Shown here: positions 2,056 to 21,177 of the stretch, in pieces
Layout of the letters: the number at the start of each line of letters is the position of its first letter
Position numbering within the stretch: position 1 is the stretch's first letter
NCBI GenBank assembly: GCA_963715195.1
Contig: CAVQRT010000031.1
Location: forward strand, 256,001 to 320,000
Direction of reading: 5' to 3'
Source: Thermodesulfovibrionales bacterium
Lineage (GTDB): Bacteria > Nitrospirota > Thermodesulfovibrionia > Thermodesulfovibrionales > SM23-35
Length of the DNA: 64,000 bases
The notes under the pieces: model-generated
The model's database searches: none
Told to the model about the DNA's origin: nothing
The model's input: the letters and a program-made list of their open reading frames with translations, nothing else
Translations under genes and position numbers: made by a program

Positions 2056-3255
2056 ATGGATACGATCAACTTTGATGAGATTAGAGCATTGAAAAAAGCC
2101 TTCTCGTCGGTGAAAGACAGACAGGGAAAAAACATGCCGTATGATTTTGACGAGAAAATAGCAAGACTCAAGGCAGTACGGGAAGCGTCTGTCGGGAACG
2201 ACGAGCTCCTGAAAAAAGCGATTGCGAACATAGAGAAAAACGGGATAACAGTCTTCCCGGCAAGAAGCAGCGACGATGCTCTCAGGGTAATTTTTCAGGA
2301 AATCGGGAGTGAAAAGCTCATCGTCAAATCAAAATCCAATGTCACGAAGGAGATCGAACTCACTACTGCACTTGAATCAAAGGGAGTTAAGGTTATTGAA
2401 ACCGATATCGGCGACAGGATTATGCAACTCCTGAAAAGCAAACCTTCCCATCCAACAGGGCCTGTAGCACATTTGTCTGCAAAAACCATTGCAGAGCGCC
2501 TTTCAAAAATTTACGGGAAGATAGTCAGCAATGATGCGGAAGCAATCGTGGAAGTTGTCAGGAAAGAGATACGATACTATCTCGATAAATCGCTCGTTGG
2601 CATTACAGGAGCAAACGCCATTACCGCGGAGGAAGGCTCGATTATCATCGCACACAATGAAGGGAACATCTTTGAGGTCATACGGAGACAAAAACATATT
2701 GTTGTGACGGCAATTGACAAGGTATATCCGGCGGTTGAAGATGCGCTCAACATGCTGAAGGTCATCTGTTTCAATGCTACCGGTTCGCTCATCCCATCCT
2801 TTATTGAAATTATCAGCGGCGTTAGCAAGACAGCAGATGTTGAGAAGCAATTCTTTAAAGGTGTCCATGCCCCAAAAGATATTGTGCTCGTTCTCTTAGA
2901 TAACAGAAGGAGCGAAATGATGGAACAGGGATTCAGGGACCTGCTTTTCTGTATCGATTGCGGGAACTGTCTTTTGCACTGCCCCATGTACAATACTATC
3001 GGGACTGAATTTGCCGAGGGCAAATATCTCGGGGGCAAGGGTCTTGCATACAAGAGCCTTGCACAGGAGGACGTTGACAAGAGACTCGAATATTGCCTGA
3101 CATGCGGAAAATGCCGGAGTAATTGTCCACTGTCGATAGATATCCCAGCAGTTATCAGAAAGGTCAGGAGTGACAGTGTCCCGCAAGAAGTCTTTTATTT
3201 TCTTAAATCACATCTCCTCTGGCTTTATTACAATATGCGGCTTCGGTTGCATTAA
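2056..3255 (+). CDS. LUD-domain / LutB-like lactate-utilization Fe-S protein
   Basis: VKSKSNVTKEI, ETDIGD, PSHPTGP, HNEGN; C-terminal CIDCGNCLLHCP and CLTCGKCRSNCP clusters. Confidence 0.8.
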   Translation: MDTINFDEIRALKKAFSSVKDRQGKNMPYDFDEKIARLKAVREASVGNDELLKKAIANIEKNGITVFPARSSDDALRVIFQEIGSEKLIVKSKSNVTKEIELTTALESKGVKVIETDIGDRIMQLLKSKPSHPTGPVAHLSAKTIAERLSKIYGKIVSNDAEAIVEVVRKEIRYYLDKSLVGITGANAITAEEGSIIIAHNEGNIFEVIRRQKHIVVTAIDKVYPAVEDALNMLKVICFNATGSLIPSFIEIISGVSKTADVEKQFFKGVHAPKDIVLVLLDNRRSEMMEQGFRDLLFCIDCGNCLLHCPMYNTIGTEFAEGKYLGGKGLAYKSLAQEDVDKRLEYCLTCGKCRSNCPLSIDIPAVIRKVRSDSVPQEVFYFLKSHLLWLYYNMRLRLH

Positions 3256-3284
3256 CGAAAGTCCCTCTATATCCTTTCTTATTC

Positions 3285-3339
3285 TTGACAAAAAACCTTT
3301 AATTTTATAATGTAGAAAAGCTAAAGGTAACCGTTCGCC
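3285..3339 (+). promoter_or_regulatory. Sigma70-type promoter followed by candidate operator GGTAACCGTTCGCC (3326-3339)
   Basis: TTGACA 3285-3290, overlapping TATAAT/TAATGT 3306-3313, operator-like motif shared with 72-85 and 7651-7664. Confidence 0.6.
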
Positions 3340-3347
3340 GACAAACC

Positions 3348-4605
3348 ATGTCAAAGATTTACTCTGGCATAGCTGACCTGGATAATCTCATAGACTCCCT
3401 CTATGTCGGGGACAATGTTGTCTGGGAGATTGAGGCCGGCACTGCTCCCGAAATTTTCGTGCTGAATTTCCTCCGTCAATCACTTTCCGAGGACCGCAAT
3501 GTCATTTACATCAGTTTTAATCAGTCACCGCATACCATCCTGCAAAAAATAGGGAGAGACCGCGCCAACAGGTAACTTCATCCTGCTTGACTGCTTTACA
3601 TCAGGGAAGGGCAAGAATGACCGGGCGTTTACAAAGTTTTACGAGAATAATGGGGACTCCCACGTTATTAAAGTTGAGGATCCGAGGAATATTGACCAGT
3701 TTACTGCTCTTCTTGCTTCTCTTGAGGACAAGTTCCAGTCCGGAGGAAGATATATATTCGACAGCCTCACCGGGATGCAGGATCTCTGGGGAGATGAGAA
3801 CAGGACATACAAGTTCTTTACCTACATTTGTCCGCTCCTCTACGACCTCGGTACCGTTGCTTACTGGATACTTGAAAAAGATGCCCACAGCCAGAAGTTC
3901 AAGGCGAATCTGAGGCACATTACCCAGGTTGTTCTTGAGTTATATAAAAGAAAAGACAAGCTTTGGATTAAAGCCCTGAAACTCGAAGGCAGACCCAACA
4001 GAGAAGCTTTTAAGCCCCATGCGTATGATATTGATGGGGAAACCGTTCTAATCACCTCGATCAAAAAAGAGGCTGCTCTCGACGTTGGGAAAAGGATCAA
4101 GGAATTGCGCACCAGAACGGCTATGAGCCAGAAGGAACTTGCCGATAAAGTCGGACTGACCCCAAGTTTCATTTCCCAGATGGAAAATAACCAGATTGCT
4201 CCCTCGCTCAGCTCGTTTATACAAATATGCGATGCACTTGGCGTCAGCCTCTCTGATACGCTGGAGAAAAAAACAGGTGAGGCTCACTGGCTCATCAGAA
4301 AAGAGAAAATCTTTTCCCATCCCTCTTTCAAAGATACTGGTTTGAAGGGTTTCAACATTGTTCATAATGGCAGTATGACAGGAAGCCTTATGATTATTGA
4401 ACCATATGCACGAGTGAAAGGGCAGATTATTCCATCTGAGGGACAGAGATTACTGTATGTTCTGAAGGGAGATGTTTCTGTCACTATCGACGGCAAAGGC
4501 GAGACTCTCAGATCAGGAGATTCGCTCTTCCTGAAAAAAGAGGTGCCCTCCGTATTAAAAAATGAAGGAGGTGATAACGCGGAAATACTCTTATTGAGCT
4601 CTTAG
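3348..4605 (+). CDS. Transcriptional regulator with KaiC/RAD55-like N-domain, XRE helix-turn-helix and cupin domain (one +1 frameshift near 3553)
   Basis: ORF 3348-3575 (SGIADLDNLIDSL) joins the frame reading GNFILLDCFTSGKG...FDSLTGMQDLWG; XRE motif MSQKELADKVGLTPSFISQMENNQIAPS; cupin LYVLKGDV...GDSL. Confidence 0.8.
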
Positions 4606-4681
4606 AAACAACTAAGAGAACGAACCCTTTATGTATATTGAGTAATGGTTTTTTTTACCCTTTGACTTAAGCAATACTGAA

Positions 4682-4703
4682 ATTTAACAGTCTTTTGTTA
4701 AAT
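4682..4703. promoter_or_regulatory. 8-6-8 inverted repeat, candidate operator upstream of the first glutamate-synthase-family gene
   Basis: ATTTAACA-GTCTTT-TGTTAAAT, just downstream of TTGACT (4662-4667). Confidence 0.4.
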
Positions 4704-4726
4704 AATACTAAACTAAGGAGAAAGCA

Positions 4727-6328
4727 ATGAATTACGGAAAACCGAATGCAAGCGCTGCAACAGGGACCAAAAACAGAGTATGGGACCAAGCCCCTTATTC
4801 AGGCATTTGTTCAGTTTGCCTCGATGGGTGTCCGGGAATCTGTGAAATCGGCAAATCTTCGTTCAGGGGCAGGGAAGTTTTATATCCGCAGCCTTTTGGA
4901 AAGGTAACGGCAGGAGCGGTAAAGGAATATCCGGTGGATTATTCGCACTTGAATATTCAGGGGACATGCATTGGCGCAATAGGCATGGATGCGGATTCGG
5001 ACAAAGCACTCTTCACAAACGTTTCTACCGAAGTGACAATTGGCAATAAACATAAGGTTACACTGAGGGTCCCGATTTTCACTGGTGCCCTCGGCTCTAC
5101 GAATATTGCACGGGATAATTGGGAAGGTCTGGCTGTCGGTGCAGCTATTTCAGGAATTATGGTTGTTATTGGGGAGAATGTCATAGGCATGGATCACGAT
5201 TCCGAGTTAAAGAATGGCAGAGTGGTCAATTCCCCTGAACTTGCAAGAAGGATTAAGACTTTTAATGAATGGAAAGATACCCATGGAGCTATTATTTTGC
5301 AGCAAAATGTCGAGGATGCAAGGCTTGGCTCTCCTGAATACGCAGTGGATAAGCTCGGGGTTGAATGTCTGGAGTTGAAATGGGGACAGGGAGCAAAGAA
5401 CATCGGAGGCGAAGTAAAACTGAAAACCCTCGACAGGGCCCTTGAATTAAAGAGAAGGGGATATGTTGTCCTGCCGGATCCTGAAGACTCTGTTGTGCAG
5501 AAGGCTTTCAAAGAGGGGGCTTTCAAGGAATTCGAGCGGCATTCGAGGCTTGGAATGGTCGAATATGAAGGTTTCATGAAGAGCGTTGAGTATCTTAGGA
5601 AAATAGGGGCAAAATTCGTTTCTCTGAAGACAGGAGCTTACAGAGTTGCAGATCTTGCGCGGGCGATGAAGTTTGCGTCTGATGCGGAAATAGACCTTCT
5701 CACCATCGACGGCGCGGGTGGCGGAACCGGAATGAGCCCGTGGAGAATGATGAATGAATGGGGAATTCCGACTATCTACCTCGAGGCGCTTGCCTATAAA
5801 TTCGCTCAGGAACTGAGGGCGAGGGGTAAATATGTGCCGGACCTCGCTATTGCAGGTGGGTTCTCACTTGAAGACCATGTATTCAAGGCAATTGCTCTGG
5901 GTGCTCCGTTCGTCAAGGCGGTCTGCATGGGCCGTGCAACTATGATACCTGCCATGGTCGGGAAAAATATCGGAAGGTGGATGCAGGAAGATAAACTGCC
6001 TCCTGAAATAAAGAAATACGGCGATACAGCGGAAAAGATATTCGTGAGTGCCGAAACATTAAAGTCAAAATACGGGAAAGCTTACAAGAAGCTTCCTCCC
6101 GGTGCAATAGGAATGTATACATTCAGCGACAGATTGCAAATTGGACTCCAGCAGCTTATGGCGGGTGCAAGGAAATTTGCAATCCAGTACGTTGACAGGT
6201 CTGACCTCGTATCATTGACAAAGGAAGCATCAGAGGTAACCGGAATTCCTTATGTGATGGAATCTGATATGGAAGAGGCTGACAGAATCTTGTTTGGTCT
6301 CGAAGAGGCCGAGAAATCAAGAGTATAA
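4727..6328 (+). CDS. Stand-alone FMN-binding glutamate synthase family protein (GltB2-like), paralog 1
   Basis: ELKWGQGAKNIGGE, IDGAGGGTGMSP, AIAGG, KAIALGA; N-terminal CSVCLDGCPGIC. Confidence 0.88.
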   Translation: MNYGKPNASAATGTKNRVWDQAPYSGICSVCLDGCPGICEIGKSSFRGREVLYPQPFGKVTAGAVKEYPVDYSHLNIQGTCIGAIGMDADSDKALFTNVSTEVTIGNKHKVTLRVPIFTGALGSTNIARDNWEGLAVGAAISGIMVVIGENVIGMDHDSELKNGRVVNSPELARRIKTFNEWKDTHGAIILQQNVEDARLGSPEYAVDKLGVECLELKWGQGAKNIGGEVKLKTLDRALELKRRGYVVLPDPEDSVVQKAFKEGAFKEFERHSRLGMVEYEGFMKSVEYLRKIGAKFVSLKTGAYRVADLARAMKFASDAEIDLLTIDGAGGGTGMSPWRMMNEWGIPTIYLEALAYKFAQELRARGKYVPDLAIAGGFSLEDHVFKAIALGAPFVKAVCMGRATMIPAMVGKNIGRWMQEDKLPPEIKKYGDTAEKIFVSAETLKSKYGKAYKKLPPGAIGMYTFSDRLQIGLQQLMAGARKFAIQYVDRSDLVSLTKEASEVTGIPYVMESDMEEADRILFGLEEAEKSRV

Positions 6329-6337
6329 GTTTTGCAT

Positions 6338-6372
6338 AAGGCGGTGATGCCGCATTGCGGCATCACCGCCTT
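6338..6372 (+). terminator. Very strong GC-rich hairpin (terminator or mRNA-stabilising element)
   Basis: AAGGCGGTGATGCCGCA-T-TGCGGCATCACCGCCTT, perfect 17-bp arms; no long U-tract. Confidence 0.6.
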
Positions 6373-6401
6373 CCCTGATATAACGGAGGTGCTGATTTCC
6401 T

Positions 6402-7376
6402 ATGACGAAGACAATGTTATCAATCTTAAAGATACTTGATACGCATCCTGACAAGATTCTTGGGTCAGGGGCTCTATCAAAGCGATTGAAGGTACACGGG
6501 GTCGATCTTACTGAAAGAACGGTACGGTATCATCTCAGGATTCTCGATGAGCGGGGTTTTACCAAGGTATTCGGCAAAGAAGGAAGGATGATTACCCCGA
6601 GAGGGAAAGAAGAACTCACGCAAGCCCTTGTCTCCGACAAAATTGGTTTTATTATCAGCAGGATTGAAACGTTGGCGTATTTAACAGATCTTGACCTCGA
6701 AACACACAATGGAAATGTTATCCTTAATATTTCCTATTTTCCTGAAGAAGAATTGAAGGATGCAATCAGGCTCATGAGCCCTGTTTTTTCCTCACCGTAC
6801 GTAATGTCGAAGATGGTTATTTTGAAGAGATCAGGGGAAAGGATAGGAGACGTGATGGTGCCGGATGGACAGGTTGGTTTTGGTACGGTTTGCAGCGTAA
6901 CCATAAACGGGATATTTCTGAAGGCAGGGATACCTGTGACATCAAGGTTTGGTGGAGTCCTCCAAATTAATTCCGACCCGGTTCGTTTTACCGCCCTGAT
7001 CGCCTATGAAGGCTCTTCACTCGACCCCCTTGAGGTATTCATCAAGAGCAAGATGACCGATATCATGGGTGCTGTCGGAAATCATTCGGGAAAGATACTC
7101 GCAAGTTTCAGGGAAATACCAGTGGTGAGTATCGAGAAAGCCACACAATTGAGAGCAACACTCACGGACAAGGGCATTGGTGGTGTTCTGCTCATCGGGA
7201 ACCCCAACCAGCCACTCCTTGAGATGCCTGTCGGACTTGACAGGGCAGGTATGATCATCGTCGGTGGTCTTAATCCGATAGCAGCCCTTGAGGAAGCAGG
7301 TATACCAACAATAACCAAGGCTATGTCCACGCTCTATAAATTTTCTGAACTTATTCCTTTTCAGGAACTCATCTAA
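6402..7376 (+). CDS. nrpR: NrpR-family nitrogen repressor (wHTH + DUF128/NRD domain), paralog 1
   Basis: LTERTVRYHLRILDERG wHTH; GTVCSVTINGIFLK, GSSLDPLEVF, GGLNPIAAL. Confidence 0.85.
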   Translation: MTKTMLSILKILDTHPDKILGSGALSKRLKVHGVDLTERTVRYHLRILDERGFTKVFGKEGRMITPRGKEELTQALVSDKIGFIISRIETLAYLTDLDLETHNGNVILNISYFPEEELKDAIRLMSPVFSSPYVMSKMVILKRSGERIGDVMVPDGQVGFGTVCSVTINGIFLKAGIPVTSRFGGVLQINSDPVRFTALIAYEGSSLDPLEVFIKSKMTDIMGAVGNHSGKILASFREIPVVSIEKATQLRATLTDKGIGGVLLIGNPNQPLLEMPVGLDRAGMIIVGGLNPIAALEEAGIPTITKAMSTLYKFSELIPFQELI

Positions 7377-7472
7377 TCCATATTCATAATTTAACCCCAC
7401 GAAAATGCAGAGTCTACAGTATCTTATGCCCAGTCGATGAATGAAGAGGGCAAAAAGACATAAATTGATTTA

Positions 7473-7491
7473 GTCGGCAAACATTGCCGAC
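7473..7491. promoter_or_regulatory. Palindrome resembling the operator, with spacer one base shorter
   Basis: GTCGGCAA-ACA-TTGCCGAC. Confidence 0.4.
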
Positions 7492-7611
7492 CAGTTACCT
7501 CTCTGCAGTTTACTGTAAAATCAAGCGGATCAAATCTAACAGGGTGATTACCGTTTAATTTATTTATATTTGTTAGGCAATAATTTTCATAATTCATCGA
7601 TATGACAGGAC

Positions 7612-7664
7612 TTGACATTTCTTTTTTTATTTGGTAGAAGTAAAGCAAAAGGTAACCGATTGCC
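7612..7664 (+). promoter_or_regulatory. Sigma70-type promoter followed by candidate operator GGTAACCGATTGCC (7651-7664)
   Basis: TTGACA 7612-7617, 17-bp spacer, TAGAAG; AAAGCAAAAGGTAACCGATTGCC nearly identical to the 3318-3339 site. Confidence 0.6.
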
Positions 7665-7972
7665 TACGAAATGAACACTCTTTGGTCAGGCATAATTGTC
7701 CCGTGCAGTTTTTGTGAAAAAATAACTGGCACACAAACGATCTCACGCCTTCTGATAATTCGATGAAAACTATATTGCTGCATGAAATCATTCGCTTTTC
7801 TCGTCAGATGATACATAAAGGCTTCAAGGTCTTTTCTCTATCCAAAGCAATAATCCATCTCCATGGAAAAGAAGGAGGTGTTGAGATGTAAGGATTTTTT
7901 TGTCCATATGGTTCACCAATACTAAAGCAGGTCTAAAAAACATAATGAATACTGAAAAAGGAGGAGGAAAAG

Positions 7973-9538
7973 ATGAGTCTAAGCAAGCCAAATGCAAGTG
8001 CTGCAACAGTAACAACCACCAGGGTGTCACCATCGCCGATGTCAGGATTGTGCGTCAACTGTGTCGATGGCTGCCCCGGATACTGCGAGGTTGGCAGGTC
8101 TGCACTTCGTGGGAGAGAAATTCTCTATCCGCAGCCTTTCGGGAAGGTCATTTCAGGGGCAGAGAAAGATTATCCGGTTGATTTCTCACATTTCAATATA
8201 CATGGAACGTGTGTTGGAGCTGTGGGAAGTGAGGCAGATCCTGATAAGGCAACATTCCCTTCTGTCAGCGTAGAGACAGAAATAACCGGTCAAGGCACCA
8301 AAATCCCGATGAAAGTGCCATTTTTCACCGGTGCCCTTGGCTCGACCGAAATCGCCCGTGTCAACTGGGAGGGCACAGCTATTGGTGCAGCCATTAGCGG
8401 GTCTATTCTCGTATGCGGTGAAAATGTCTGTGGAATGGATTCAAAGGCTGAGATCAAGAATGGAAAAATCGCGAATTCGCCCGAGCTCGCGCGGCGAGTA
8501 AAGACCTACAAGGACTGGTATGACGGATACGGTACAATGCTTGTTCAGTTAAATGTTGAGGACACCCGCCTTGGGGTTGCCGAGTATGCTGTAGAAAAAC
8601 TCGGCGTGGAGGGCATTGAGCTCAAATGGGGACAAGGAGCCAAATGTATTGGTGGTGAAGTGAAACTGCCGACATTGGATAGAGCGCTCCAATTGAAACA
8701 GAGAGGGTATATTGTTCTCCCTGATCCTGAAAATAAGTCAGTACAGGAAGCACATAAACTTGGAGGCGTTGCTGAATTCGAGAGACACTCACGTCTTGGA
8801 ATGGTTGAAGAAGACTCATTTATGAAAGAAGTCGAACGGGTGAGAAAGATTGGCGCAAAATATGTGACCCTTAAGACAGGGGCTTACAGGCCGGTGGATC
8901 TAGCCCGTGCAGTTAAGTATTCATCGATGGCGAAAATTGACCTCCTTACGGTGGATGGTGCCGGTGGAGGGACAGGAATGAGCCCGTGGAGAATGATGAA
9001 CGAATGGGGCATCCCGACCGTCTATCTTGAATGCCTTTTGTACAACTATCTGAAAAGGCTGAAGGAAAAGGGTGAGTTTGTCCCGTCCGTTGCCATCGCC
9101 GGTGGTATAGTTCTTGAAGACCAGATTTTCAAGGCACTGGCACTCGGCGCTCCTTTTGTGAAAGCGATCTGCATGGGGCGTTCAACCCTTACCGCGGGAA
9201 TGGTCGGCAAGTCCCAGGGGAATAACATCGAAGAGGCTTTTGGAAAAGGCAAGGAATACGAAGAGGCCCTGATGAGGACGTTTAACGGTGCGGCAATGCT
9301 GAAAGACAAATTTGGGAAGGATCTCAAGAAGATTCCCCCGGCAGCGATAGGGATATACACTTACTACGACCGGCTTGCTGTGGGATTGAGACAGCTTATG
9401 GCAGGGGCACGTAAATTCGCCCTGAAGTATATTGAGAGAAGTGATCTCATGTCGATGACCCGCGAAGCAGCAGATGTGTCAGGTATCCCGTATTTGATGG
9501 ATGTCGACATGAAAGAAGCAGAAAATATCTTAGGATAA
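7973..9538 (+). CDS. Stand-alone FMN-binding glutamate synthase family protein (GltB2-like), paralog 2
   Basis: Same motifs as 4727-6328 (ELKWGQGAKCIGGE, VDGAGGGTGMSPWRMMNEWG); strong GGAGGAGG RBS. Confidence 0.88.
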   Translation: MSLSKPNASAATVTTTRVSPSPMSGLCVNCVDGCPGYCEVGRSALRGREILYPQPFGKVISGAEKDYPVDFSHFNIHGTCVGAVGSEADPDKATFPSVSVETEITGQGTKIPMKVPFFTGALGSTEIARVNWEGTAIGAAISGSILVCGENVCGMDSKAEIKNGKIANSPELARRVKTYKDWYDGYGTMLVQLNVEDTRLGVAEYAVEKLGVEGIELKWGQGAKCIGGEVKLPTLDRALQLKQRGYIVLPDPENKSVQEAHKLGGVAEFERHSRLGMVEEDSFMKEVERVRKIGAKYVTLKTGAYRPVDLARAVKYSSMAKIDLLTVDGAGGGTGMSPWRMMNEWGIPTVYLECLLYNYLKRLKEKGEFVPSVAIAGGIVLEDQIFKALALGAPFVKAICMGRSTLTAGMVGKSQGNNIEEAFGKGKEYEEALMRTFNGAAMLKDKFGKDLKKIPPAAIGIYTYYDRLAVGLRQLMAGARKFALKYIERSDLMSMTREAADVSGIPYLMDVDMKEAENILG

Positions 9539-9549
9539 GGAGGAAGATA

Positions 9550-9771
9550 ATGCTTAATTTAATTTGCTATAAGTTCTGTTCATCACCCTTCTGCATGGTT
9601 AGTTGTCCTGCAGGTGCAATAAGTATCTCAACAAAGGATAACAATGTTTATGCCGACACGAATAAATGCAACAGGTGTGGTATCTGTCGTGGCATGTGTT
9701 CTATTCTGAGTTTTGATAAAAATCTGAGAAGGAGAAGGCCGTGGGTGCGTGAGGATTTCGGCAAAAAATAG
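9550..9771 (+). CDS. Small 4Fe-4S ferredoxin-like protein
   Basis: CYKFCSSPFCMVSCP and CNRCGICRGMC; AGGAGG RBS. Confidence 0.8.
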   Translation: MLNLICYKFCSSPFCMVSCPAGAISISTKDNNVYADTNKCNRCGICRGMCSILSFDKNLRRRRPWVREDFGKK

Positions 9772-9845
9772 AAGGCATATAATCATTCTCCTCTCTTTCG
9801 TTGTACCCATCAGTCAAGGATGAGGAGTTAGAGGAAGTTACAGGT

Positions 9846-10325
9846 ATGGAAGAAGAACTTTTAGAACAAATCTTATCATCATACTGTGGTCAGAGAAATG
9901 AACTCGTTCCGATCCTTCAGGAGGTTCAGGAAAACCTTGGCTACCTTCCGGAGAAGGTGATGCTGGATATTGCGCGCTTTGTCGGCGCTCCCGAAAGTCA
10001 TGTATATTCTGTCGCATCTTTTTATGCGCAGTTCAGAACACTGCCACTCGGCAAGAGACGAGTTGCTGTCTGCAGAGGTACGGCATGTCATATCAGAGGA
10101 GCGCCTCAAGTCCTCCATGCAATTGAGGACTCAATCCATCTGAAGGAAGGGGAAACGTCTGAGGACCTTGAGTACACGCTCGAGACGGTTGCATGTATTG
10201 GATGCTGTGCTCTGGCCCCCTGCGTAAGAGTCAATAAGGACGTTAGCGGAGATATGACGCCGGAAAAAGCCATGAAACTTTTCATGAGGAATGGCAAAAA
10301 TGACGGAAGAAAAAGGATTAAATAA
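9846..10325 (+). CDS. nuoE: NuoE/HydC-like [2Fe-2S] subunit
   Basis: VCRGTACH...VACIGCCALAP; start placed at ATG 9846. Confidence 0.85.
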   Translation: MEEELLEQILSSYCGQRNELVPILQEVQENLGYLPEKVMLDIARFVGAPESHVYSVASFYAQFRTLPLGKRRVAVCRGTACHIRGAPQVLHAIEDSIHLKEGETSEDLEYTLETVACIGCCALAPCVRVNKDVSGDMTPEKAMKLFMRNGKNDGRKRIK

Positions 10326-11937
10326 GCGGCATGTAATCCTGGTATGTCAGGGGACGGGCTGCGTTTCAGGAGGGTCAGAACATATCTTTTCAGCCCTGAA
10401 AGATGCTTTGGAAACATCGGGGAATGGAAAAGACATCCTTGTAAAACGCACAGGCTGCCATGGTTTCTGCCAGCAAGGCCCTCTTGCTGTTGTCGAGCCA
10501 CAAGGTATTTTTTACACAAAAGTGACAAGAGAGGATATCCCTGAAATCTTGCAGTCTATTTCATTAGGAGGCAAACCGTTGGAGCGCCTCTTATATCGTG
10601 ATACATTTACGGATAAACCAATCCTCCATTACCATGATATTCCTTTCTACTGGAAACAGCAGAGAACCATATTGAAATACTGCGGCAGCATTGACCCTGA
10701 AGACATCGATGATTACAGCGAGGTCGGGGGATACAGAGCTCTGCAGAAGGCAATCTCTGCAATGTCTCCTGAAGACATTATTGGAGAAGTAAAGGAATCG
10801 GGACTGAGGGGACTTGGTGGCGCGGGTTTCCCCACCGGCCGCAAATGGGAATCCTGCCGAAATGTGCCCGGAGATATCAAGTACGTAATCTGTAATGCTG
10901 ACGAAGGCGACCCGGGAGCGTTCCAGGACAGATCAGTTATGGAAGGCAACCCTCACTCGCTTATCGAAGGTATGATCATTGCAGCCTATGCAATAGGAGC
11001 TCAACGAGGTTTTGTTTATGTGAGGGCAGAGTATCCCCTTGCTGTCAGCCGCCTAAAAATTGCTATCGACCAGGCACAGAAAGCAGGTTTTCTGGGTGAC
11101 GACATTGTGGGCAGAGGTTTCAGTTTTCATATCGACATCTTTCAGGGAGCAGGGGCCTTCGTATGCGGTGAATCGACGGCTCTGGTGCGCTCAATCGAAG
11201 GAAAGAGGGGTATGCCCAAGCCAATGCCCCGTCCGAGGACTACCGAGGAAGGATTATGGAATAAACCGACCCTTCTTAATAATGTCAAAACATTTGCAAA
11301 TATACCGTTGATCATCATGAACGGTTCAGAATGGTTTTCGCAGAGAGGGACAGAGAAAAGCAAGGGCACAGCCGTATTTTCTCTCACGGGAAAGGTGATG
11401 AACTGCGGCCTTATAGAAGTGCCCATGGGAGAAACGTTGCGGAAAATCATATTCGATATCGGGGGAGGAGTTTTAGGCGGCAAGTCCCTGAAAGCAATTC
11501 AGACCGGAGGGCCATCGGGCGGGTGCCTGCCTGCACACATGATAGATATGCCTGTTGATTTCGACTCGCTCACAAAAGCAGGTTCGATCATGGGTTCCGG
11601 AGGGCTTGTCGTGATGGATGAGGATACCTGCATGGTCGATGTTGCACGATACTTTCTTGATTTTAACCAGAGGGAATCCTGTGGCCAGTGCATCCCCTGC
11701 AGGATCGGTACCCGGCAGATGTTCGAGATCCTTGAAGAAATCACAAGAGGGAATGGACGGCCCGGGGATATCGACCTGCTCCTTGAATTAAGCAGCTCAA
11801 TAAAACAGAGTTCGATATGCGGACTCGGCAAGACAGCCCCAAATCCTGTTGTCACAACGATTCGGTATTTTCGGGATGAGTACGAGGCACACATTAAGGA
11901 GAAACGATGTCCTGCTGGTGTATGCAGGATGAATTGA
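10291..11937 (+). CDS. nuoF: NuoF/HydB-like FMN, NAD(P)H-binding subunit with N-terminal [2Fe-2S] domain
   Basis: GLRGLGGAGFPTG, NADEGDPGAF, GAGAFVCGES, GGPSGG, ESCGQCIPCR; no C-terminal 2[4Fe-4S] domain; alternative start 10300. Confidence 0.87.
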   Translation: MAKMTEEKGLNKRHVILVCQGTGCVSGGSEHIFSALKDALETSGNGKDILVKRTGCHGFCQQGPLAVVEPQGIFYTKVTREDIPEILQSISLGGKPLERLLYRDTFTDKPILHYHDIPFYWKQQRTILKYCGSIDPEDIDDYSEVGGYRALQKAISAMSPEDIIGEVKESGLRGLGGAGFPTGRKWESCRNVPGDIKYVICNADEGDPGAFQDRSVMEGNPHSLIEGMIIAAYAIGAQRGFVYVRAEYPLAVSRLKIAIDQAQKAGFLGDDIVGRGFSFHIDIFQGAGAFVCGESTALVRSIEGKRGMPKPMPRPRTTEEGLWNKPTLLNNVKTFANIPLIIMNGSEWFSQRGTEKSKGTAVFSLTGKVMNCGLIEVPMGETLRKIIFDIGGGVLGGKSLKAIQTGGPSGGCLPAHMIDMPVDFDSLTKAGSIMGSGGLVVMDEDTCMVDVARYFLDFNQRESCGQCIPCRIGTRQMFEILEEITRGNGRPGDIDLLLELSSSIKQSSICGLGKTAPNPVVTTIRYFRDEYEAHIKEKRCPAGVCRMN

Positions 11938-11989
11938 ATGAGGCTAAGAAAGATGCTGTTGGCAGGAACAATAGAGAAAGGAGGTCGCA

Positions 11990-14677
11990 ATGGGTACGGT
12001 TACACTGAAGATTGATGATCAGGAAATCCAAACCTGGCAAGGTGCCACTATCCTTGAAACGGCTCTGGAAAATAAAATCTATATACCACACCTCTGTTAT
12101 CATCCGGACTTGAAACCTGCCGGAAGCTGCCGTATCTGCCTTGTGGAACTTGATAACGGCCGACTGGTGAATTCATGCAGGACCCCGGTAAAGGAAGGCA
12201 TGGTCATAAGAACAAAGGGGTCTGAAGTCGATGCAGTGAGGCTGCCGGTTATTGAAATGATTATTGCCAATCATCATATGGACTGCAAGCATTGCCTAAA
12301 AAAAGGGCGGTGCCAATTGCAGAAGATCATGGCATATATGAAGGTAGACAAAAAGAAAATTCAGGAGCGGATGAGACTGCCGAAAGCTGATATGCCACTT
12401 GATGAATCGAATCCTTTTTTTATCAGAGATCATAACAAATGTGTCATGTGCGGAATTTGTATACAGACCTGCAAAGAGATTGCAAAAGTTAATGCAATTG
12501 ATTTTGCCGGCAGAGGGATCCAGAGCAAAGTTGCTCCGTTTGCAGATAAGCCGATAACAGAATCCAGCTGCGTCTCATGCGGAGAGTGCGTAATCCGCTG
12601 CCCTGTTGGTGCGCTTGTTTTAAGGAATCCCAGGAAAGCTGTCACGTGGGTGAAATCTATCTGTCCATACTGCGGCGTCGGATGCGGCGTTCTTCTGGGC
12701 ATCAAGGATAATGAAATTGTTGAGGTGAGAGCTGATGCGTCGAGTGCGGTAAATTTCGGATGTCTTTGTGTAAAAGGTCGCTTCGGCATGGACTTTGTAA
12801 ATTCACCGGACAGACTAAGCTACCCAATGGTAAGACAGGAGCGAGGAAAAGGAACAGACAAAGCAGCAGGTAAGGGGAGTAACAGCGGGTTTCTCGAGAT
12901 TTCCTGGGACGAGGCACTCGATCTTGTCGCAAAAAATTTGAAAAAATATAAGGGTGATGAATTTGCTCTCATAGCGTCAACTAAGTGCACTAATGAAGAC
13001 AATTATGTGGCACAAAAGTTTGCAAGGGTCGTCATGGGGAGCAACAACATCGACACCTCAGCCAGACTCTACTATGGTCCGAACATCACTGCGTTGCGGA
13101 GTACGGGGAAATGTGTCGGGTTCAGTCCGCCAGACGACAGTGATGTCTTTCCGGTTCCGGCGAGACAAAATCCGGATCTGATCGAAAAGGCTGCCTGCAT
13201 ACTTGTTGCCGGGGCAAATATTACCCAGTCACATCCGATATTAGGCCTGAAAATAAAGAAAGCGATTGATAACGGCGCGAAGCTTCTCGTCATAAGCCCG
13301 AATGAGACTGAACTCTGCCGAAGTGCTGAAAAATGCCTTAACCCCTATCCCGGTTCAGAACTGGCTCTTATTATGGGCATGTGCAATGTGATTGTCGAAG
13401 AGGAATTGTTTGACAGTGCATTCACAGGTATGTATTGCAATAATTTTGAAGAATTCAAAGAAGCACTCGGCGATTTTTCCCTTGGGAGGGTCGAAAGAAT
13501 TACCGGGATTCCCCGTGATATGGTCGAAGAGTCTGCCCGGACTTACGCGCTCAGCAAACCTGCTGCAATCTTCTGGGGTGCAGGAATCACCCAATATAGT
13601 CACGGGACAGACAGTGTTTATGCTCTCATAAATCTTGCAATTCTTACTGCAAATATCAAACATTCCTTTGCACTGAATCCCCTCTCAGAACAGAGCAATA
13701 CCTTAGGGGCCTGCGATATGGGTTGCCTGCCTGACTATTATCCCTGCTATCAACCCGTTGGTTCGCCTGATATACAGGAACGATTTGAAGCTCTTTGGGA
13801 GTGTGCACTGAACCCGAAGCCCGGCCTTACCTTTACCGAAATAATAGATGCCACACTTGCAGGAAAAATCAAAGCACTCTATATTATTGGATCGAACCCG
13901 GCTGTGACAATCGCTCCATCGAAAAAGGTAAAAGCTGCGTTGAAGAAAGCTAAATTTGTTGTTGTCCAGGACTTGTTCCTGAATGAGACAGCTCAATATG
14001 CCCACGTAGTCCTTCCGGCGGCAAGCTTTGCCGAAAAAACCGGTTCCTTTACGAATACAGGGGCTGAAACACAACCCATAGAAAAAGCACTTGAACCCTT
14101 TGGGAATTCAAGGCCGGACTGGGAAATATTGTGCCGGCTTGCAGATAGAATGGACAGCAGAGGCTTTGCGTTTGCAAGCCCCGATGACATTCTGTCGGAG
14201 ATGGTGGCGCTTATCCAGAACCTGCCTGAAACAATAGGAAAGTTTAGTTTGTTCCCGCTGCAATACAAAGCTCCGGCAGAGGCCGCAGACATGGATTATC
14301 CTCTTGTCCTGACGAGAGAGAGAGATTGTTACGCAGATGGCGTCATGTCTGAAAAAGCGCATGGCCTGAGAGAGCTTGGGTTGACAAACTATCTTCAGGT
14401 AAATCCAAAGGATGCCGCAGATTTTGGGATCGCTGACGGAGAAGCAGTTCGAATCGTTTCCCGGCACGGGTCTGCAGAGAGCAAGGCATTATTGACAGAA
14501 TCAACTCCTGCAGGTCTCGCAGTCCTAAAAGAGGATCAAGAACACTTCAATTCGCTTTTGAATCCAGTTCTCGATGTAATATCAAGAACTCCTGAGATGA
14601 AAATGTGTTCAGTCAGACTTGAAAAAGTTAAGGGGCACAAAAAGAGACAAAAGAATCTTGCAGTGAAATATGCATAG
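11990..14677 (+). CDS. Formate-dehydrogenase-alpha-like (NuoG/FdhF fold) Fe-S protein lacking the catalytic Cys/Sec-His
   Basis: N-terminal [2Fe-2S], HxxxCxxC and 2[4Fe-4S] motifs, CPYCGVGC; active-site segment reads NNIDTSARLYY instead of NNID..ARL(C/U)H. Confidence 0.82.
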   Translation: MGTVTLKIDDQEIQTWQGATILETALENKIYIPHLCYHPDLKPAGSCRICLVELDNGRLVNSCRTPVKEGMVIRTKGSEVDAVRLPVIEMIIANHHMDCKHCLKKGRCQLQKIMAYMKVDKKKIQERMRLPKADMPLDESNPFFIRDHNKCVMCGICIQTCKEIAKVNAIDFAGRGIQSKVAPFADKPITESSCVSCGECVIRCPVGALVLRNPRKAVTWVKSICPYCGVGCGVLLGIKDNEIVEVRADASSAVNFGCLCVKGRFGMDFVNSPDRLSYPMVRQERGKGTDKAAGKGSNSGFLEISWDEALDLVAKNLKKYKGDEFALIASTKCTNEDNYVAQKFARVVMGSNNIDTSARLYYGPNITALRSTGKCVGFSPPDDSDVFPVPARQNPDLIEKAACILVAGANITQSHPILGLKIKKAIDNGAKLLVISPNETELCRSAEKCLNPYPGSELALIMGMCNVIVEEELFDSAFTGMYCNNFEEFKEALGDFSLGRVERITGIPRDMVEESARTYALSKPAAIFWGAGITQYSHGTDSVYALINLAILTANIKHSFALNPLSEQSNTLGACDMGCLPDYYPCYQPVGSPDIQERFEALWECALNPKPGLTFTEIIDATLAGKIKALYIIGSNPAVTIAPSKKVKAALKKAKFVVVQDLFLNETAQYAHVVLPAASFAEKTGSFTNTGAETQPIEKALEPFGNSRPDWEILCRLADRMDSRGFAFASPDDILSEMVALIQNLPETIGKFSLFPLQYKAPAEAADMDYPLVLTRERDCYADGVMSEKAHGLRELGLTNYLQVNPKDAADFGIADGEAVRIVSRHGSAESKALLTESTPAGLAVLKEDQEHFNSLLNPVLDVISRTPEMKMCSVRLEKVKGHKKRQKNLAVKYA

Positions 14678-14712
14678 GAAAAGTCCCTTGAACAGGGTCC
14701 ATGTGTAGCTTT

Positions 14713-15690
14713 ATGAATAAAACCATGATTGCAATTCTGAAAATTCTGGAGCAGCATGAGGATACCATCCTTGGCTCAAGAGGGATTTCAAGACAATTGA
14801 AACAACATGGGATTGAACTTACGGAGAGAACTGTGCGTTATCACCTGAGAATTCTCGATGAGCGGGGGTTTACCAAAGTATTTGGCAAGGAAGGAAGGAT
14901 GATAACACAGAAAGGAAAAGTCGAGCTTTCGCATGCGTTAGTGTCTGACAGAATCGGTTTTGTTATCAGCAGGATCGAAAGTCTTTCGTATCTGACAAGC
15001 CTTGATCTCGAAAAAAACGAAGGCGATATCATTCTCAATGTATCGTATTTTCCCGAAAAAAATCTGAAGGAAGCATTGCGGATAATGAGGCCGGTCTTTC
15101 TGTCGCCGTATGTTATGTCTGACAGGGTTATCATGAAAAGGGGAGGAGAGAAGATCGGAGATGTCCCGGTCCCGGATGAACAGGTTGGTTTTGGCACCGT
15201 CTGCAGTGTAACCATCAACGGTATATTCCTCAAGTCAGGTATCCCTGTTATATCGAAGTTCGGTGGTGTCTTGCAGATAGAGGAAGCTGAACTGTCGAGA
15301 TTTACTGCACTGATCAGTTACGAAGGTTCATCATTGGACCCGCTCGAAATATTTATCAAGAGCAGGATGACGGATGTCTTGGGTGCAGTTAGAAATCGCT
15401 CCGGGAAGATTCTCGCCAGTTTCAGAGAAATACCGGTGGTAAGCATCGAAAAAGCGGAAGAACTCTGGAACGAATTGAGAAAAAATGGCATACGGGGTAT
15501 TTTGCTCATAGGCAATCCCAACCAGCCACTTCTCGAGATGCCTGTTGGACTTGACAGGGCAGGGATGGTGATCGTTGGCGGACTGAATCCAATTGCTGCA
15601 CTTGAAGAAGCAGGGATTGCGACGGTAACAAAAGCAATGTCCACCCTCCACAGGTTCTCTGACCTTGTGAAGTTTACGGAACTTCTCTAA
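14713..15690 (+). CDS. nrpR: NrpR-family nitrogen repressor, paralog 2
   Basis: Highly similar to 6402-7376 along the whole length; ATG 14713 aligns with the paralog start. Confidence 0.85.
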   Translation: MNKTMIAILKILEQHEDTILGSRGISRQLKQHGIELTERTVRYHLRILDERGFTKVFGKEGRMITQKGKVELSHALVSDRIGFVISRIESLSYLTSLDLEKNEGDIILNVSYFPEKNLKEALRIMRPVFLSPYVMSDRVIMKRGGEKIGDVPVPDEQVGFGTVCSVTINGIFLKSGIPVISKFGGVLQIEEAELSRFTALISYEGSSLDPLEIFIKSRMTDVLGAVRNRSGKILASFREIPVVSIEKAEELWNELRKNGIRGILLIGNPNQPLLEMPVGLDRAGMVIVGGLNPIAALEEAGIATVTKAMSTLHRFSDLVKFTELL

Positions 15691-16127
15691 GGCTCTTTGG
15701 ACTTTTCCAGGAAGTCTAAAATATAATCACAGTACTCGTGATAATCTTTTAAACAATCTGTGATTGAAGAATAAATGCTGTTATAATCAACGACGTCATA
15801 TTCATGAACCAGAATATTCCTTGTTCCAACACTTCGGGCTATTCGCCGGGCAAATTCTTCCGGGCAAATACCGCAATCGGCAAGCCTCAGGAAAGTCTCA
15901 GCATAATCCAGCGGAGGATTTGTATCTTTTGTTGATAGCTCTGAAATCAAATGATGATTTATATCAATAGCACGGTTGATAATTCTTTCCAGATACCGCT
16001 CAAGGGCTGCTTGTTTGATGAAGTCACGTGTTATTTCTTGCAAAGAATATTTGGCTAAGTCAGCGAGATGAACGAGTTCATTCTGAATAAGGGTTATTTT
16101 CCTTAAAATAAAGTTTTCCCTTATCAT
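15687..16127 (-). CDS. HEPN (DUF86/HepT-like) ribonuclease toxin
   Basis: RNILVHEY matches the RX4HXY HEPN motif; stop/start overlap with the MNT gene. Confidence 0.85.
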   Translation of the reverse strand: MIRENFILRKITLIQNELVHLADLAKYSLQEITRDFIKQAALERYLERIINRAIDINHHLISELSTKDTNPPLDYAETFLRLADCGICPEEFARRIARSVGTRNILVHEYDVVDYNSIYSSITDCLKDYHEYCDYILDFLEKSKEP

Positions 16128-16555
16128 CTTGTCGCGGCTATCATTTCTTTTAATATCTTCTGCCGTTTTTTGATAAGAAATTTCTCAAGCGCAAAAAGAG
16201 GCTGAGAGTCGATATATTCTTTGAAGGCAAAAGCTTTATGTGCAGCATATTCATCCTCGTCACCATAGAGTAAAATCCCTGATGAAATAACTTCGTATCT
16301 ATGAAATGTATTAACCTTATTGAGATTTGTTAAATCTATTTTATTATCTGGGATACCGAACAGATCTGATAAAAAATGTAAGAGCTCAATATAATTGTTG
16401 AAATCAGCTATATTTCCTTTCTTTGTCGTTAATACTGCCACATCATAATCACTTTCTTCACGGACAGTTCCCATAGCCTGAGAGCCGAAAAGAACAAGAA
16501 ATTTGATCCCATGTTCGATTGCATATTGTTCAATATTTTCTTTATTGATTTCCAT
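16124..16555 (-). CDS. Minimal nucleotidyltransferase (MntA-like) antitoxin
   Basis: LFGSQAMG...SDYDVAV (GSX10DXD) and IDLTNL; upstream of HEPN gene. Confidence 0.85.
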   Translation of the reverse strand: MEINKENIEQYAIEHGIKFLVLFGSQAMGTVREESDYDVAVLTTKKGNIADFNNYIELLHFLSDLFGIPDNKIDLTNLNKVNTFHRYEVISSGILLYGDEDEYAAHKAFAFKEYIDSQPLFALEKFLIKKRQKILKEMIAATR

Positions 16556-16677
16556 GAGTTTAATGTAGCACATAAGCGATGAAACAGCAAAACATACCCC
16601 GCAGCTTTACAACGGTTTGCATTTTTTATCAATAATTTACTATGCTTAATTATTAAACATTGGGAGGTAAGAAAGGC

Positions 16678-21143: not shown

Positions 21144-21158
21144 AAAAATTTGTCATAT

Positions 21159-21177
21159 AATGAAAATGATTATCATT
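21159..21177. promoter_or_regulatory. Second Fur box
   Basis: AATGAAAATGATTATCATT directly downstream of fur. Confidence 0.68.

What the first reader, a model, noticed from the sequence alone, without database searches (positions are those of the whole stretch)
7973..15690. Glutamate-synthase FMN subunit wired to a ferredoxin-NuoE-NuoF-pseudoFDH module: a candidate GltD replacement under NrpR control
Seen: one co-directional run behind an operator-bearing promoter encodes a stand-alone FMN glutamate-synthase-family protein, a ferredoxin, NuoE, NuoF, an FdhA-fold protein without its catalytic residues, and NrpR. No gltD is present in the window. Established: classical GOGAT receives electrons from GltD (NADPH) or ferredoxin, and NrpR is a 2-oxoglutarate-sensing nitrogen repressor. 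Inference: a HydABC/FDH-derived diaphorase has been repurposed as the electron input for reductive amination of 2-oxoglutarate, possibly together with the amidotransferase gene starting at position 43. I do not know of this architecture being characterised.
Basis: partly seen in the sequence, partly recalled or inferred. Interest (0 to 1): 0.78.

Follow-up and report, generated by a model that had tools for sequence, protein, structure and literature searches.

The report
NADPH-fed, amidotransferase-free glutamate-synthase-like operon
A conserved, probably nitrogen-regulated operon in sediment anaerobes joins an unstudied relative of glutamate synthase's catalytic domain to a small ferredoxin and a remodelled hydrogenase-type NADPH module, and it most likely makes glutamate from free ammonia alongside, not in place of, the cell's ordinary glutamate synthase.

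Summary
The six-gene run is real and conserved: 17 of 17 close relatives keep FMN-gene–ferredoxin–nuoE–nuoF, and Dehalococcoidia, Ammonifex and an archaeon carry it too. The pseudo-FDH domain is dispensable (a ~225-aa NuoG-N stub elsewhere). The FMN protein keeps GltS motifs of the FMN and 2-oxoglutarate site, swaps the C-terminal [3Fe-4S] cysteines for an invariant N-terminal four-cysteine motif, and occurs in genomes lacking the GXGXG subunit. Its NuoF belongs to one clade (27 of 27 beside the FMN gene) that lost B3/B4 and the bifurcation Met, and here has the NADP signature. A GGYAAC-CG-WTTGCC dyad, NrpR-like, marks this promoter and the canonical one. Best reading (about 50%): NADPH-driven reductive amination of 2-oxoglutarate with free ammonia. 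The scan found the long-NuoF (bifurcating-type) version of this family before on other DNA; the short-NuoF, ferredoxin-bearing clade is what this locus adds.

The parts
7612..7617 (+). TTGACA, probable -35 element of the operon promoter
   Evidence: TTGAC kept at the same place in 6 of 8 aligned upstream regions; not listed by the consensus promoter scan
7651..7664 (.). 14-bp dyad operator, probably bound by NrpR, just downstream of the probable -10
   Evidence: top of 10 genome-wide hits at 13 bits or more, matrix trained on 18 sites of relatives; resembles the archaeal NrpR operator GGAAN6TTCC (PMC2723118)
7918..7953 (+). pair of AATACT repeats 30 bp apart just before the ribosome-binding site; unknown regulator site
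   Evidence: 3 such pairs in the whole genome, two of them before the two FMN genes; an ATACT pair 27-35 bp apart stands before 20 of 97 FMN genes examined, nearly all Nitrospirota
7973..9538 (+). FMN-B: stand-alone GltS-like FMN TIM barrel, 521 aa, N-terminal C27/C30/C34/C38 motif, no C-terminal [3Fe-4S] motif; proposed catalytic subunit
9550..9771 (+). dedicated 73-aa 2x[4Fe-4S]-type ferredoxin, 8 Cys; proposed electron-entry subunit of FMN-B
   Evidence: follows the FMN gene in 38 of 80 loci, with or without nuoEF; kept intact where nuoF has decayed
9801..10325 (+). NuoE/HydC-like [2Fe-2S] subunit (relatives suggest the ATG at 9846 as start)
10291..11937 (+). short NuoF/HydB-like flavoprotein: N-terminal [2Fe-2S], FMN/NAD(P) site, B1 and B2-site ligands, no B3/B4 domain; Q212 for the Bfu Met, L175/K333 for Arg/Glu, S295 and R316 NADP-type
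11990..14677 (+). NuoG/FdhA-fold subunit: N-terminal Fe-S wire (about residues 1-213) plus a catalytically degenerate molybdopterin fold
14701..15690 (+). NrpR (second copy), last gene of the run
   Evidence: directly after the pseudo-FDH gene in 11 of 12 relatives where the contig goes on
4727..6328 (+). context: FMN-A, paralogue of FMN-B (63%) without ferredoxin or nuoEF
6402..7376 (+). context: first NrpR copy (75% to the second)
3326..3339 (.). context: same dyad before the KaiC-XRE / FMN-A / nrpR operon
   Evidence: third-best genome-wide hit, 20.9 bits
72..85 (.). context: same dyad before the canonical split glutamate synthase operon
   Evidence: second-best genome-wide hit, 23.8 bits
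1..43 (-). context, not a part: start of the class II amidotransferase of the separate, complete split glutamate synthase

Best explanation
The operon encodes a soluble Fe-S flavoenzyme of five kinds of subunit that does the job of an NADPH-dependent glutamate dehydrogenase with glutamate-synthase chemistry. Shown: the gene set, its conservation, cofactor ligands, the NADP-type and Bfu-divergent residues of NuoF, the degenerate FDH site and the shared operator. Inferred: NADPH reduces FMN in NuoF; electrons pass B1 to the NuoG-N clusters, to the dedicated ferredoxin, to an N-terminal [4Fe-4S] on FMN-B and to its FMN, which reduces 2-iminoglutarate formed from 2-oxoglutarate and free ammonia, with no amidotransferase, no GXGXG tunnel subunit and no ATP. 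FMN-B plus ferredoxin is the core; the NuoEFG module is an exchangeable donor, here probably no longer bifurcating; the pseudo-FDH fold is a structural relic. NrpR probably derepresses it with the canonical GS-GOGAT genes when 2-oxoglutarate rises.
For: Homology to the split GltB FMN subunit (hhalign probability 95.5, E 1.4e-8) aligns Q192, K218, K224, R244, K301 and T334 with A. brasilense GltS Q909, K931, K937, R957, K999, T1030 (numbering counted; their FMN/2-oxoglutarate roles are recalled, not read); all but R244 are invariant in 87 of 87 rows, R244 is R or K in 86. Model pLDDT 80, FMN (beta/alpha)8 barrel; GltS 6s6s Z 20.8, rmsd 3.9, 349 aligned. Neighbours in 80 loci: NrpR 17, GlnA 12, HisF 12, NadE 8, GDH 5, CarA 5; class II GATase in only 6, mostly inside separate split-GOGAT operons. 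No longer fusion found (weak test). G027, G061, G062, G065 carry the module but gave no GXGXG hit, and 6 of 21 Dehalococcoidia with the family gave none. G000 gave no GDH hit. Plug-in donors: FrhB fusion P0212, long-NuoF Bfu operons and AOR-Hdr-Bfu clusters, nuoF remnants behind intact FMN+ferredoxin in L214-L216. NuoF S295/R316 match NADP-using T. kivui HydB, whose Arg340 contacts NADP+ (PMC10021017 passages). B3/B4 absent and Met to Gln in 26 of 26 complete clade members.
Against: No activity, cofactor or binding data. Fold alone does not single out GltS: alpha-hydroxy-acid oxidases and type II IPP isomerase score higher (Z 24-26). The family coexists with GDH-family genes (10 of 21 Dehalococcoidia; GDH adjacent in 5 of 80 loci) and with canonical GOGAT (15 of 17 relatives), so it is not needed as a sole route. 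A low-affinity ammonia route under a nitrogen-limitation repressor is not an obvious fit. Missing GXGXG hits come from draft genomes. HoxF lacks the B3/B4 domain yet is reported to bifurcate (bioRxiv 10.64898/2026.06.25.734504), and this NuoF keeps Ala210, Phe290 and GGPSG, so loss of bifurcation is not settled. 6 of 34 genomes with the exact dyad gave no NrpR hit.
Confidence: 0.5

Rival explanations
1. Same catalytic subunit, but the module still bifurcates or confurcates: the operon's ferredoxin is a detached stand-in for the lost B3/B4 domain and takes the low-potential branch.
For: B1, B2-site (C447, H534, C540, C545) and GGPSG residues kept in 26 of 26; cyanobacterial HoxF bifurcates without the C-terminal ferredoxin domain; the ferredoxin profile hits B3/B4 tails, though at generic 2x[4Fe-4S] scores (up to 34.5 bits).
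Against: HoxF keeps the AFM motif, this clade has AFQ in 26 of 26; the same ferredoxin family also sits with long NuoFs that have B3/B4 (L022, L048, L068, L076) and with no nuoF at all (L008, L009, L013, L055); the B2 site can hold structural Zn (PMC11829005 passages).
Confidence: 0.15
2. The enzyme runs oxidatively: glutamate to 2-oxoglutarate plus ammonia with NADP+ reduction, supplying NADPH or ammonia to neighbours such as HisF without HisH, NadE, CarAB and PurL.
For: Ammonia- or glutamine-using biosynthetic genes are frequent neighbours; GltS-type FMN sites are chemically reversible (recalled).
Against: Shares its operator with the assimilatory split GOGAT; NADP+ reduction from the glutamate couple (about -0.12 to -0.14 V, recalled) is uphill against NADPH (-320 mV).
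Confidence: 0.13
3. One reading: a glutamine-dependent glutamate synthase in which FMN-B borrows the amidotransferase that starts at 43 and NuoEFG replaces GltD.
For: The two operons lie 8 kb apart and share the dyad; they are adjacent in some relatives (L127, L128).
Against: The GATase has its own GltB2 and GXGXG/GltD-like partners; on separate contigs in most relatives; four genomes with the module gave no GXGXG hit; class II GATase near only 6 of 80 FMN genes.
Confidence: 0.12
4. FMN-B acts on another substrate (another 2-oxo or 2-hydroxy acid or imine), or the genes are only co-regulated and NuoEFG serves the general NADPH/ferredoxin pool.
For: Best fold matches are alpha-hydroxy-acid oxidases; a LutB/LUD gene often flanks the island; family-specific invariant FERHSR and SPWRM motifs have no GltS counterpart.
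Against: The loop after strand 6 is GltS-type (DGAGGGTG), not the SNHGGR of hydroxy-acid oxidases (recalled); strict 27 of 27 linkage and repeated recruitment of donors.
Confidence: 0.1

Closest known systems
Glutamate synthase alpha subunit / ferredoxin-GltS FMN (synthase) domain (A. brasilense GltS, PDB 1EA0/6S6S; Synechocystis 1LLW) and archaeal-type split GltB2
   Same: FMN barrel with the ExKxxQGAK, DGxxGGTG and GG..A.ALGA motifs; K937, R957, T1030 counterparts kept; nitrogen-assimilation context
   Different: No amidotransferase, central or GXGXG domain or linked subunit; C-terminal [3Fe-4S] cysteines replaced by an N-terminal four-Cys motif; no hit to solved GltS by phmmer or profile; donor is NuoEFG plus ferredoxin, not GltD
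BfuABC / HydABC family (A. mobile NiFe-HydABCSL 7T2R, T. kivui HydABC 8A6T, WorABCSL 9MQX; Schut et al. 2022, PMC9304861)
   Same: NuoF closest to A. mobile HydB (763 bits); extra catalytic subunit fed through BfuA as in Type 2/3; NADP signature as in T. kivui; A. mobile HydA also matches the NuoG/FdhA-fold protein over residues 3-574
   Different: Lacks B3/B4, so outside the family definition; Met204 to Gln, Arg to Leu and Glu to Lys at the FMN loop; the word glutamate does not occur in the main text of PMC9304861
HoxEFU diaphorase of cyanobacterial HoxEFUYH
   Same: E-F-U architecture, F without the C-terminal ferredoxin domain, U with a His-ligated cluster
   Different: Partner is a GltS-like flavoprotein, not HoxYH; AFQ instead of AFM; NADP-type pocket in 21 of 26
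NAD(P)-dependent glutamate dehydrogenase
   Same: Proposed net reaction
   Different: Unrelated fold; here flavin and Fe-S mediated with exchangeable donors
NrpR regulon of Methanococcus maripaludis
   Same: NRD1/2 repressor next to nitrogen genes; 14-bp GG...CC dyad (operator GGAAN6TTCC, PMC2723118)
   Different: Bacterial dyad GGYAA-N4-TTGCC; in G000 the strong sites mark only the three glutamate-synthase-family promoters, not glnA

Membership tests
Glutamate synthase (GltB, complete or split) | FMN (beta/alpha)8 synthase domain homologous to PF01645 | tested here: met
   PF01645 52.6 bits over cut-off 20.4; hhalign 95.5%; 6s6s Z 20.8, rmsd 3.9, 349 aligned
Glutamate synthase (GltB, complete or split) | 2-oxoglutarate/FMN-site residues (K931, K937, R957, K999, T1030) | tested here: met
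   K218, K224, R244, K301, T334 aligned, conserved; roles recalled, source paper not held
Glutamate synthase (GltB, complete or split) | C-terminal [3Fe-4S] motif CxxxxxCxxxxC | tested here: not met
   no invariant Cys after residue 38 in 87 rows; the motif is present in the genome's canonical GltB2
Glutamate synthase (GltB, complete or split) | class II amidotransferase and GXGXG domains fused or co-operonic | tested here: not met
   none in the operon; GATase near 6 of 80 loci; no fusion of 913-2605 aa found (weak); no GXGXG hit in 4 of 4 module-bearing genomes chosen for lacking canonical GltB2
Glutamate synthase (GltB, complete or split) | glutamate formation from 2-oxoglutarate | not testable with these tools
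   needs an enzyme assay
BfuABC electron-bifurcating enzymes | BfuB with B3/B4 2x[4Fe-4S] C-terminal domain (IPR017896) | tested here: not met
   protein ends 3 residues after C545; no Fer4 hit; 26 of 26 clade members short; definition from PMC9304861
BfuABC electron-bifurcating enzymes | B1, B2, B5 ligands in BfuB and C1 in BfuC | tested here: met
   C19/24/56/60, C464/467/470/510, C447/H534/C540/C545; NuoE PF01257 156 bits
BfuABC electron-bifurcating enzymes | Ala-Phe-Met motif (A202, M204 in A. mobile) | tested here: not met
   Ala kept, Met is Gln212 in 26 of 26; Gln is also not the Lys/Ser/Ala of described non-bifurcating enzymes
BfuABC electron-bifurcating enzymes | single Phe motif and GGPSG | tested here: met
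   GAFVCG and GGPSGG present
BfuABC electron-bifurcating enzymes | coupled NAD(P)/ferredoxin turnover | not testable with these tools
   needs biochemistry
Mo/W formate dehydrogenase | metal-ligating Cys/Sec followed by His | tested here: not met
   Tyr-Tyr here; Cys-His kept in only 2 of 17 full-length copies read
Mo/W formate dehydrogenase | active-site Arg of the PLRGQNN motif | tested here: not met
   Ser566; not Arg in 15 of 15 copies where the motif could be read; present in the C7 Sec-FDH
alpha-hydroxy-acid oxidase/dehydrogenase | catalytic His-Arg loop (SNHGGR, recalled) | tested here: not met
   invariant DG.GGGTG at that place
NrpR regulon | NrpR gene and dyad operator at the promoter | tested here: met
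   site in 8 of 16 loci with nrpR against 3 of 35 without
NrpR regulon | NrpR, not another factor, binds the dyad in a 2-oxoglutarate-sensitive way | tested here: inconclusive
   exact dyad in 28 of 42 genomes with an NrpR hit and 6 of 19 without; binding needs an experiment

The most novel reading that the evidence does not exclude
A widespread, undescribed third route of ammonia assimilation in anaerobes: a stand-alone GltS-type flavoenzyme that needs neither glutamine nor ATP and plugs into whatever donor the cell has (F420 through an FrhB fusion, tungsten aldehyde oxidoreductase, bifurcating Bfu, or NADPH). This locus would be a natural experiment in which a Bfu core was converted to a plain or rewired NADPH donor by losing B3/B4 and changing Met, Arg and Glu at the flavin, which makes the rules of Bfu bifurcation directly testable.
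Probability: 0.4. Interest if true: 0.8.

Novelty: new variant of a known kind. Interest (0 to 1): 0.62.

Why it matters
Textbook ammonia assimilation has two routes, GS-GOGAT and GDH. A family of at least 8,000 proteins at 90% clustering, with no solved relative found by sequence, annotated only as 'FMN-binding glutamate synthase family', may be a third. It would change nitrogen and energy budgets drawn for energy-starved sediment microbes, and its nuoEFG genes are easily mis-annotated as hydrogenase, FDH or complex I parts. The clade-specific changes in NuoF (B3/B4 loss, Met to Gln, Arg/Glu to Leu/Lys, switchable NADH/NADPH pocket) give ready-made variants for asking what makes a Bfu enzyme bifurcate.

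Tried and rejected
Sequence searches of the PDB with FMN-B alone or as a profile gave only designed TIM barrels. A search for fusions of 913-2605 aa found none (weak by the tool's own note). The consensus promoter/terminator scan gave counts at chance level and did not list the promoter. RNA: two runs of one sediment study held 12 contigs at 99% or better, all inside 7973-15690 and none elsewhere in 1-16500; the runs were found with that stretch and DNA carry-over is not excluded, so this shows neither co-transcription nor nitrogen response. Anti-correlation with GDH was tested and is not clear: 17 of 61 relatives have a GDH-family hit, only 3 above 45% identity; 10 of 21 Dehalococcoidia have both. 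The idea that the small ferredoxin is simply the split-off B3/B4 domain was not supported by its distribution. A. mobile F182, named in PMC9304861, could not be placed on the PDB numbering, so it was not scored. The FMN tree is a quick IQ-TREE run and the NuoF tree a FastTree run; Nitrospirota nesting inside Chloroflexota suggests transfer but was not tested with a clade test or a root. Literature: ten full-text searches gave no description of this architecture; the library lacks most subscription papers. Two GltS reviews were not held. I read no supplements; Supplementary Table 1 and Figure 10 of PMC9304861 may list such neighbours or change the residue criteria.
Full report
Observation. The run at 7973-15690 holds six co-directional genes with gaps of at most 74 bp: a 521-aa protein with a weak PF01645 match, a 73-aa eight-Cys ferredoxin, NuoE, a 548-aa NuoF, an 895-aa NuoG/FdhA-fold protein and NrpR. 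The window is G000:C31:256001-320000; the closest named relatives are Thermodesulfovibrionales and other Nitrospirota, and near-identical DNA occurs in estuary and marine sediment runs. A paralogue of the FMN gene (FMN-A, 4727-6328, 63%) and a second nrpR (75%) lie just upstream. And the amidotransferase at 43 starts on the minus strand and heads a three-gene operon outside the window: GATase (369 aa), a 4Fe-4S/FMN GltB2 with the canonical C-terminal cysteines (553 aa, PF01645 210 bits) and a GXGXG-like/GltD-like fusion (816 aa; Fer4_20 and Pyr_redox_2). That is a complete split glutamate synthase with its own GltD-type domain. It is near-universal in the order (57 of 61 genomes give a hit, about 50 at 77% identity or more), whereas the divergent FMN family is accessory (38 of 61).

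Conservation. All 17 relatives with FMN-B at 81% identity or more keep FMN-ferredoxin-nuoE-nuoF; 14 show the pseudo-FDH gene (one cut by a contig end) and 3 contigs end inside nuoF; nrpR follows in 11 of 12 that go on (two of the 17 are the same records as L004 and L005). Among 80 GTDB loci (the best 80 of 588 found) the same tight order occurs in 9: Nitrospirota, Dehalococcoidia, Ammonifex and a Thermoproteota bin. In Dehalococcoidia and the archaeon the last subunit is only the Fe-S part, about 210-225 aa, so the molybdopterin fold is not needed. Where it is present it drifts: the Cys/Sec-His pair reads YY, CY, SY, CQ, SD, CS, CD or TH, with CH in 2 of 17 copies, and the Arg is absent in 15 of 15 readable copies, while G000 has a normal Sec-FDH with its own nuoEF on C7. 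Reverse test: of 80 metagenome loci found with NuoF as query, 4 carry the short, AFQ-type NuoF and all 4 lie in FMN-ferredoxin-E-F-U operons; 6 more have a long NuoF beside the FMN gene. In a tree of 108 NuoF rows the short type is one clade (27 rows, support 99), every member beside the FMN gene, apart from the long FMN-linked NuoFs: the family appears to have recruited NuoEFG modules more than once.

The catalytic candidate. FMN-B belongs to a tight family of at least 8,000 clusters (only the 8,000 best candidates were scored), 256 representatives at E 1e-30 among 1.84 billion, also common in Methanobacteriota by the Atlas cluster label. It does not hit the genome's GltB2 by BLASTP or solved GltS by HMMER, but profile-profile comparison with seven split GltB2 sequences gives 95.5% over residues 188-414. 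Through the GltB2-1EA0 alignment Q192, K218, K224, R244, K301 and T334 correspond to Q909, K931, K937, R957, K999 and T1030, and E150 by eye to E886; that these bind FMN and 2-oxoglutarate is recalled, as the reviews were not held. They are conserved in 87 of 87 rows, R244 in 82 with K in 4. The [3Fe-4S] cysteines are absent and C27-x2-C30-x3-C34-x3-C38 is invariant. The model (pLDDT 80.3, pTM 0.85; N-terminus poorly resolved) is an FMN barrel, scoring Z 24-26 with hydroxy-acid oxidases and Z 20.8 with GltS, which gave the longest alignment (349 residues). So the fold is shared widely and the motifs point to GltS. PMC8097209 (passages) gives the GltS chemistry: ammonia adds to 2-oxoglutarate and FMN reduces the imine.

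Source of nitrogen. Neighbours in the 80 loci are nitrogen genes: KaiC-XRE-cupin 18, NrpR 17, GlnA 12, HisF 12, NifA-like 12, GAF-ANTAR 11, NadE 8, GDH 5, CarA 5. A class II GATase is near in 6, mostly in separate split-GOGAT operons (many loci are short). G027, G061, G062 and G065 carry the module but gave no GXGXG hit and no canonical GltB2; G062 also gave no GDH hit; 6 of 21 further Dehalococcoidia with the family gave no GXGXG hit, 3 of them also no GDH. These are draft genomes, so this is support, not proof, for free ammonia as substrate. Against need: 15 of the 17 close carriers also have canonical GltB2.

Electron input. The ferredoxin follows the FMN gene in 38 of 80 loci, also where no nuoEF follows or where AOR, HdrA, MvhD and a long-NuoF module follow. 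In L214-L216 FMN and ferredoxin are intact and only nuoF/nuoG remnants remain. A distant relative is fused to FrhB (P0212). The core is therefore FMN-B plus ferredoxin with exchangeable donors. The NuoF is closest to A. mobile HydB and keeps B1, B5 and B2-site ligands, but ends before B3/B4, which PMC9304861 (passages) uses to define BfuB. Against 65 long NuoFs, 26 of 26 short ones have L175 for Arg, Q212 for Met, K333 for Glu and Q466 for Lys. PMC7311640 (section 17) ties that Met to bifurcation, though Ala, Phe and GGPSG are kept. A 2026 preprint on HoxEFUYH (abstract, passages and section 8) reports bifurcation without the C-terminal domain but with AFM, so I call bifurcation probably lost, not excluded. 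Position 295 and the following loop co-vary: Glu with PFP in 5 of 26, Ser with an Arg/His-Thr/Ser loop in 21 of 26, including this one; R316 aligns with T. kivui HydB Arg340, which contacts NADP+ (PMC10021017 passages). NADPH is the likely donor and would be enough for the glutamate couple (potential recalled).

Regulation. A matrix built from 18 sites of relatives puts its three best G000 hits (26.9, 23.8, 20.9 bits; next 16.0) at the promoters of this operon, the canonical GOGAT operon and the KaiC-XRE/FMN-A/nrpR operon. The exact pattern occurs in 34 of 61 genomes, the reversed control in none, often about 1.1 kb before canonical GltB2 (the pattern came from these sequences, so the count is partly circular). 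It lies just downstream of a conserved TTGAC and resembles GGAAN6TTCC (PMC2723118 passages). It tracks nrpR across phyla (8 of 16 against 3 of 35 loci) but 6 of 34 genomes gave no NrpR hit. PMC9765008 (passages) confirms NrpR as a 2-oxoglutarate-dependent repressor, and notes that glutamate synthase was not induced in that methanogen.

What is known. Ten searches found no description of the architecture (listed under Tried and rejected); PMC13759103, PMC3087415, PMC5736913 and PMC7143216 (passages only) do not describe it, PMC3087415 naming only an unproven FrhB-linked F420 glutamate synthase. Earlier notes of this scan describe the long-NuoF version on other DNA; I saw such loci myself (L051, L064, L132, L139, L179, L182, L184, L187). 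This locus adds the ferredoxin-bearing, short-NuoF, NADP-type clade, the dispensable pseudo-FDH and the shared operator.

Verdict. Real, conserved and apparently uncharacterised; works like a glutamate synthase stripped to its reductive half and fed by a Hox/Bfu-type diaphorase; not a member of canonical GltS, Bfu or FDH by the features tested. Not a GltD replacement for the neighbouring amidotransferase. Interest 0.62.

Noticed in passing
window 3348-4605: KaiC-like ATPase + XRE HTH + cupin regulator, split by a one-base frameshift near 3556; two other runs lack that extra base and relatives have an intact 417-453 aa gene, so the break is peculiar to this assembly or strain. The gene flanks the FMN family in 18 of 80 loci.
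   Followed up: partly
window 4673-4709 and 7918-7953: AATACT pairs 30-31 bp apart before both FMN genes, conserved in Nitrospirota; a similar AAGTAATACT repeat in L048. Possibly the site of the KaiC-XRE regulator.
   Followed up: partly
window 7473-7491: Second dyad with one base less in the spacer, 175 bp upstream of the main operator; L115 has the full-length form at the same place. Second operator or terminator hairpin.
   Followed up: partly
window 2056-3255: LutB/LdhH-like LUD + Fe-S gene that precedes the island in many Nitrospirota and sits inside the operon in L055; no LutA/LutC seen next to it.
   Followed up: no
window 15687-16573: HepT/MNT toxin-antitoxin pair directly behind nrpR on the minus strand; contigs of two other runs diverge at 15690, so it is a variable insertion.
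   Followed up: partly
P0212: 800-aa fusion of an FrhB (F420-binding) domain with a distant member of this FMN family.
   Followed up: partly
L022, L048, L068, L076 (and 13 more with AOR): FMN-ferredoxin-AOR-small FeS-HdrA-MvhD-HdrC-nuoE-long nuoF-nuoG-N clusters in Desulfobacterota and some Nitrospirota: a possible tungsten-AOR/Hdr/Bfu supercomplex on the same FMN enzyme.
   Followed up: no
L214:3388-3552, L215:928-1204, L216:1080-1262: nuoF and nuoG remnants behind intact FMN and ferredoxin genes in three Dehalococcoidia genomes.
   Followed up: yes
L004, L006, L117, L118, L127: Five short NuoFs have GLGTCG in place of the first two N-terminal cluster cysteines, perhaps a Zn-type B5 site; a partly different five carry the NADH-type pocket.
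   Followed up: no
L130, L131, L012, L051: Two FMN-family paralogues in tandem or close together (56-59% to FMN-A), so multiple copies per island are common.
   Followed up: no
G000:C7:304088-306847: Selenocysteine formate dehydrogenase with its own nuoE/nuoF; two further nuoEFG sets on C6 (beside CODH/ACS) and C33.
   Followed up: partly
window 20670-30240: Metal/Fe-S cluster: two Fur genes, DUF5320, two NifB/NifX-like, three Mrp/MinD ATPases, and a FeoB ORF lacking the first half of its G domain.
   Followed up: no
window 44235-51681: Multiheme cytochrome c3, 4Fe-4S, NrfD and NarI/CCG genes (Hmc/Tmc-like), some in overlapping pieces.
   Followed up: no
L002: A 2-kb contig labelled Rikenellaceae carries FMN-B at 93% identity, inside the Nitrospirota clade; probably misbinned.
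   Followed up: no
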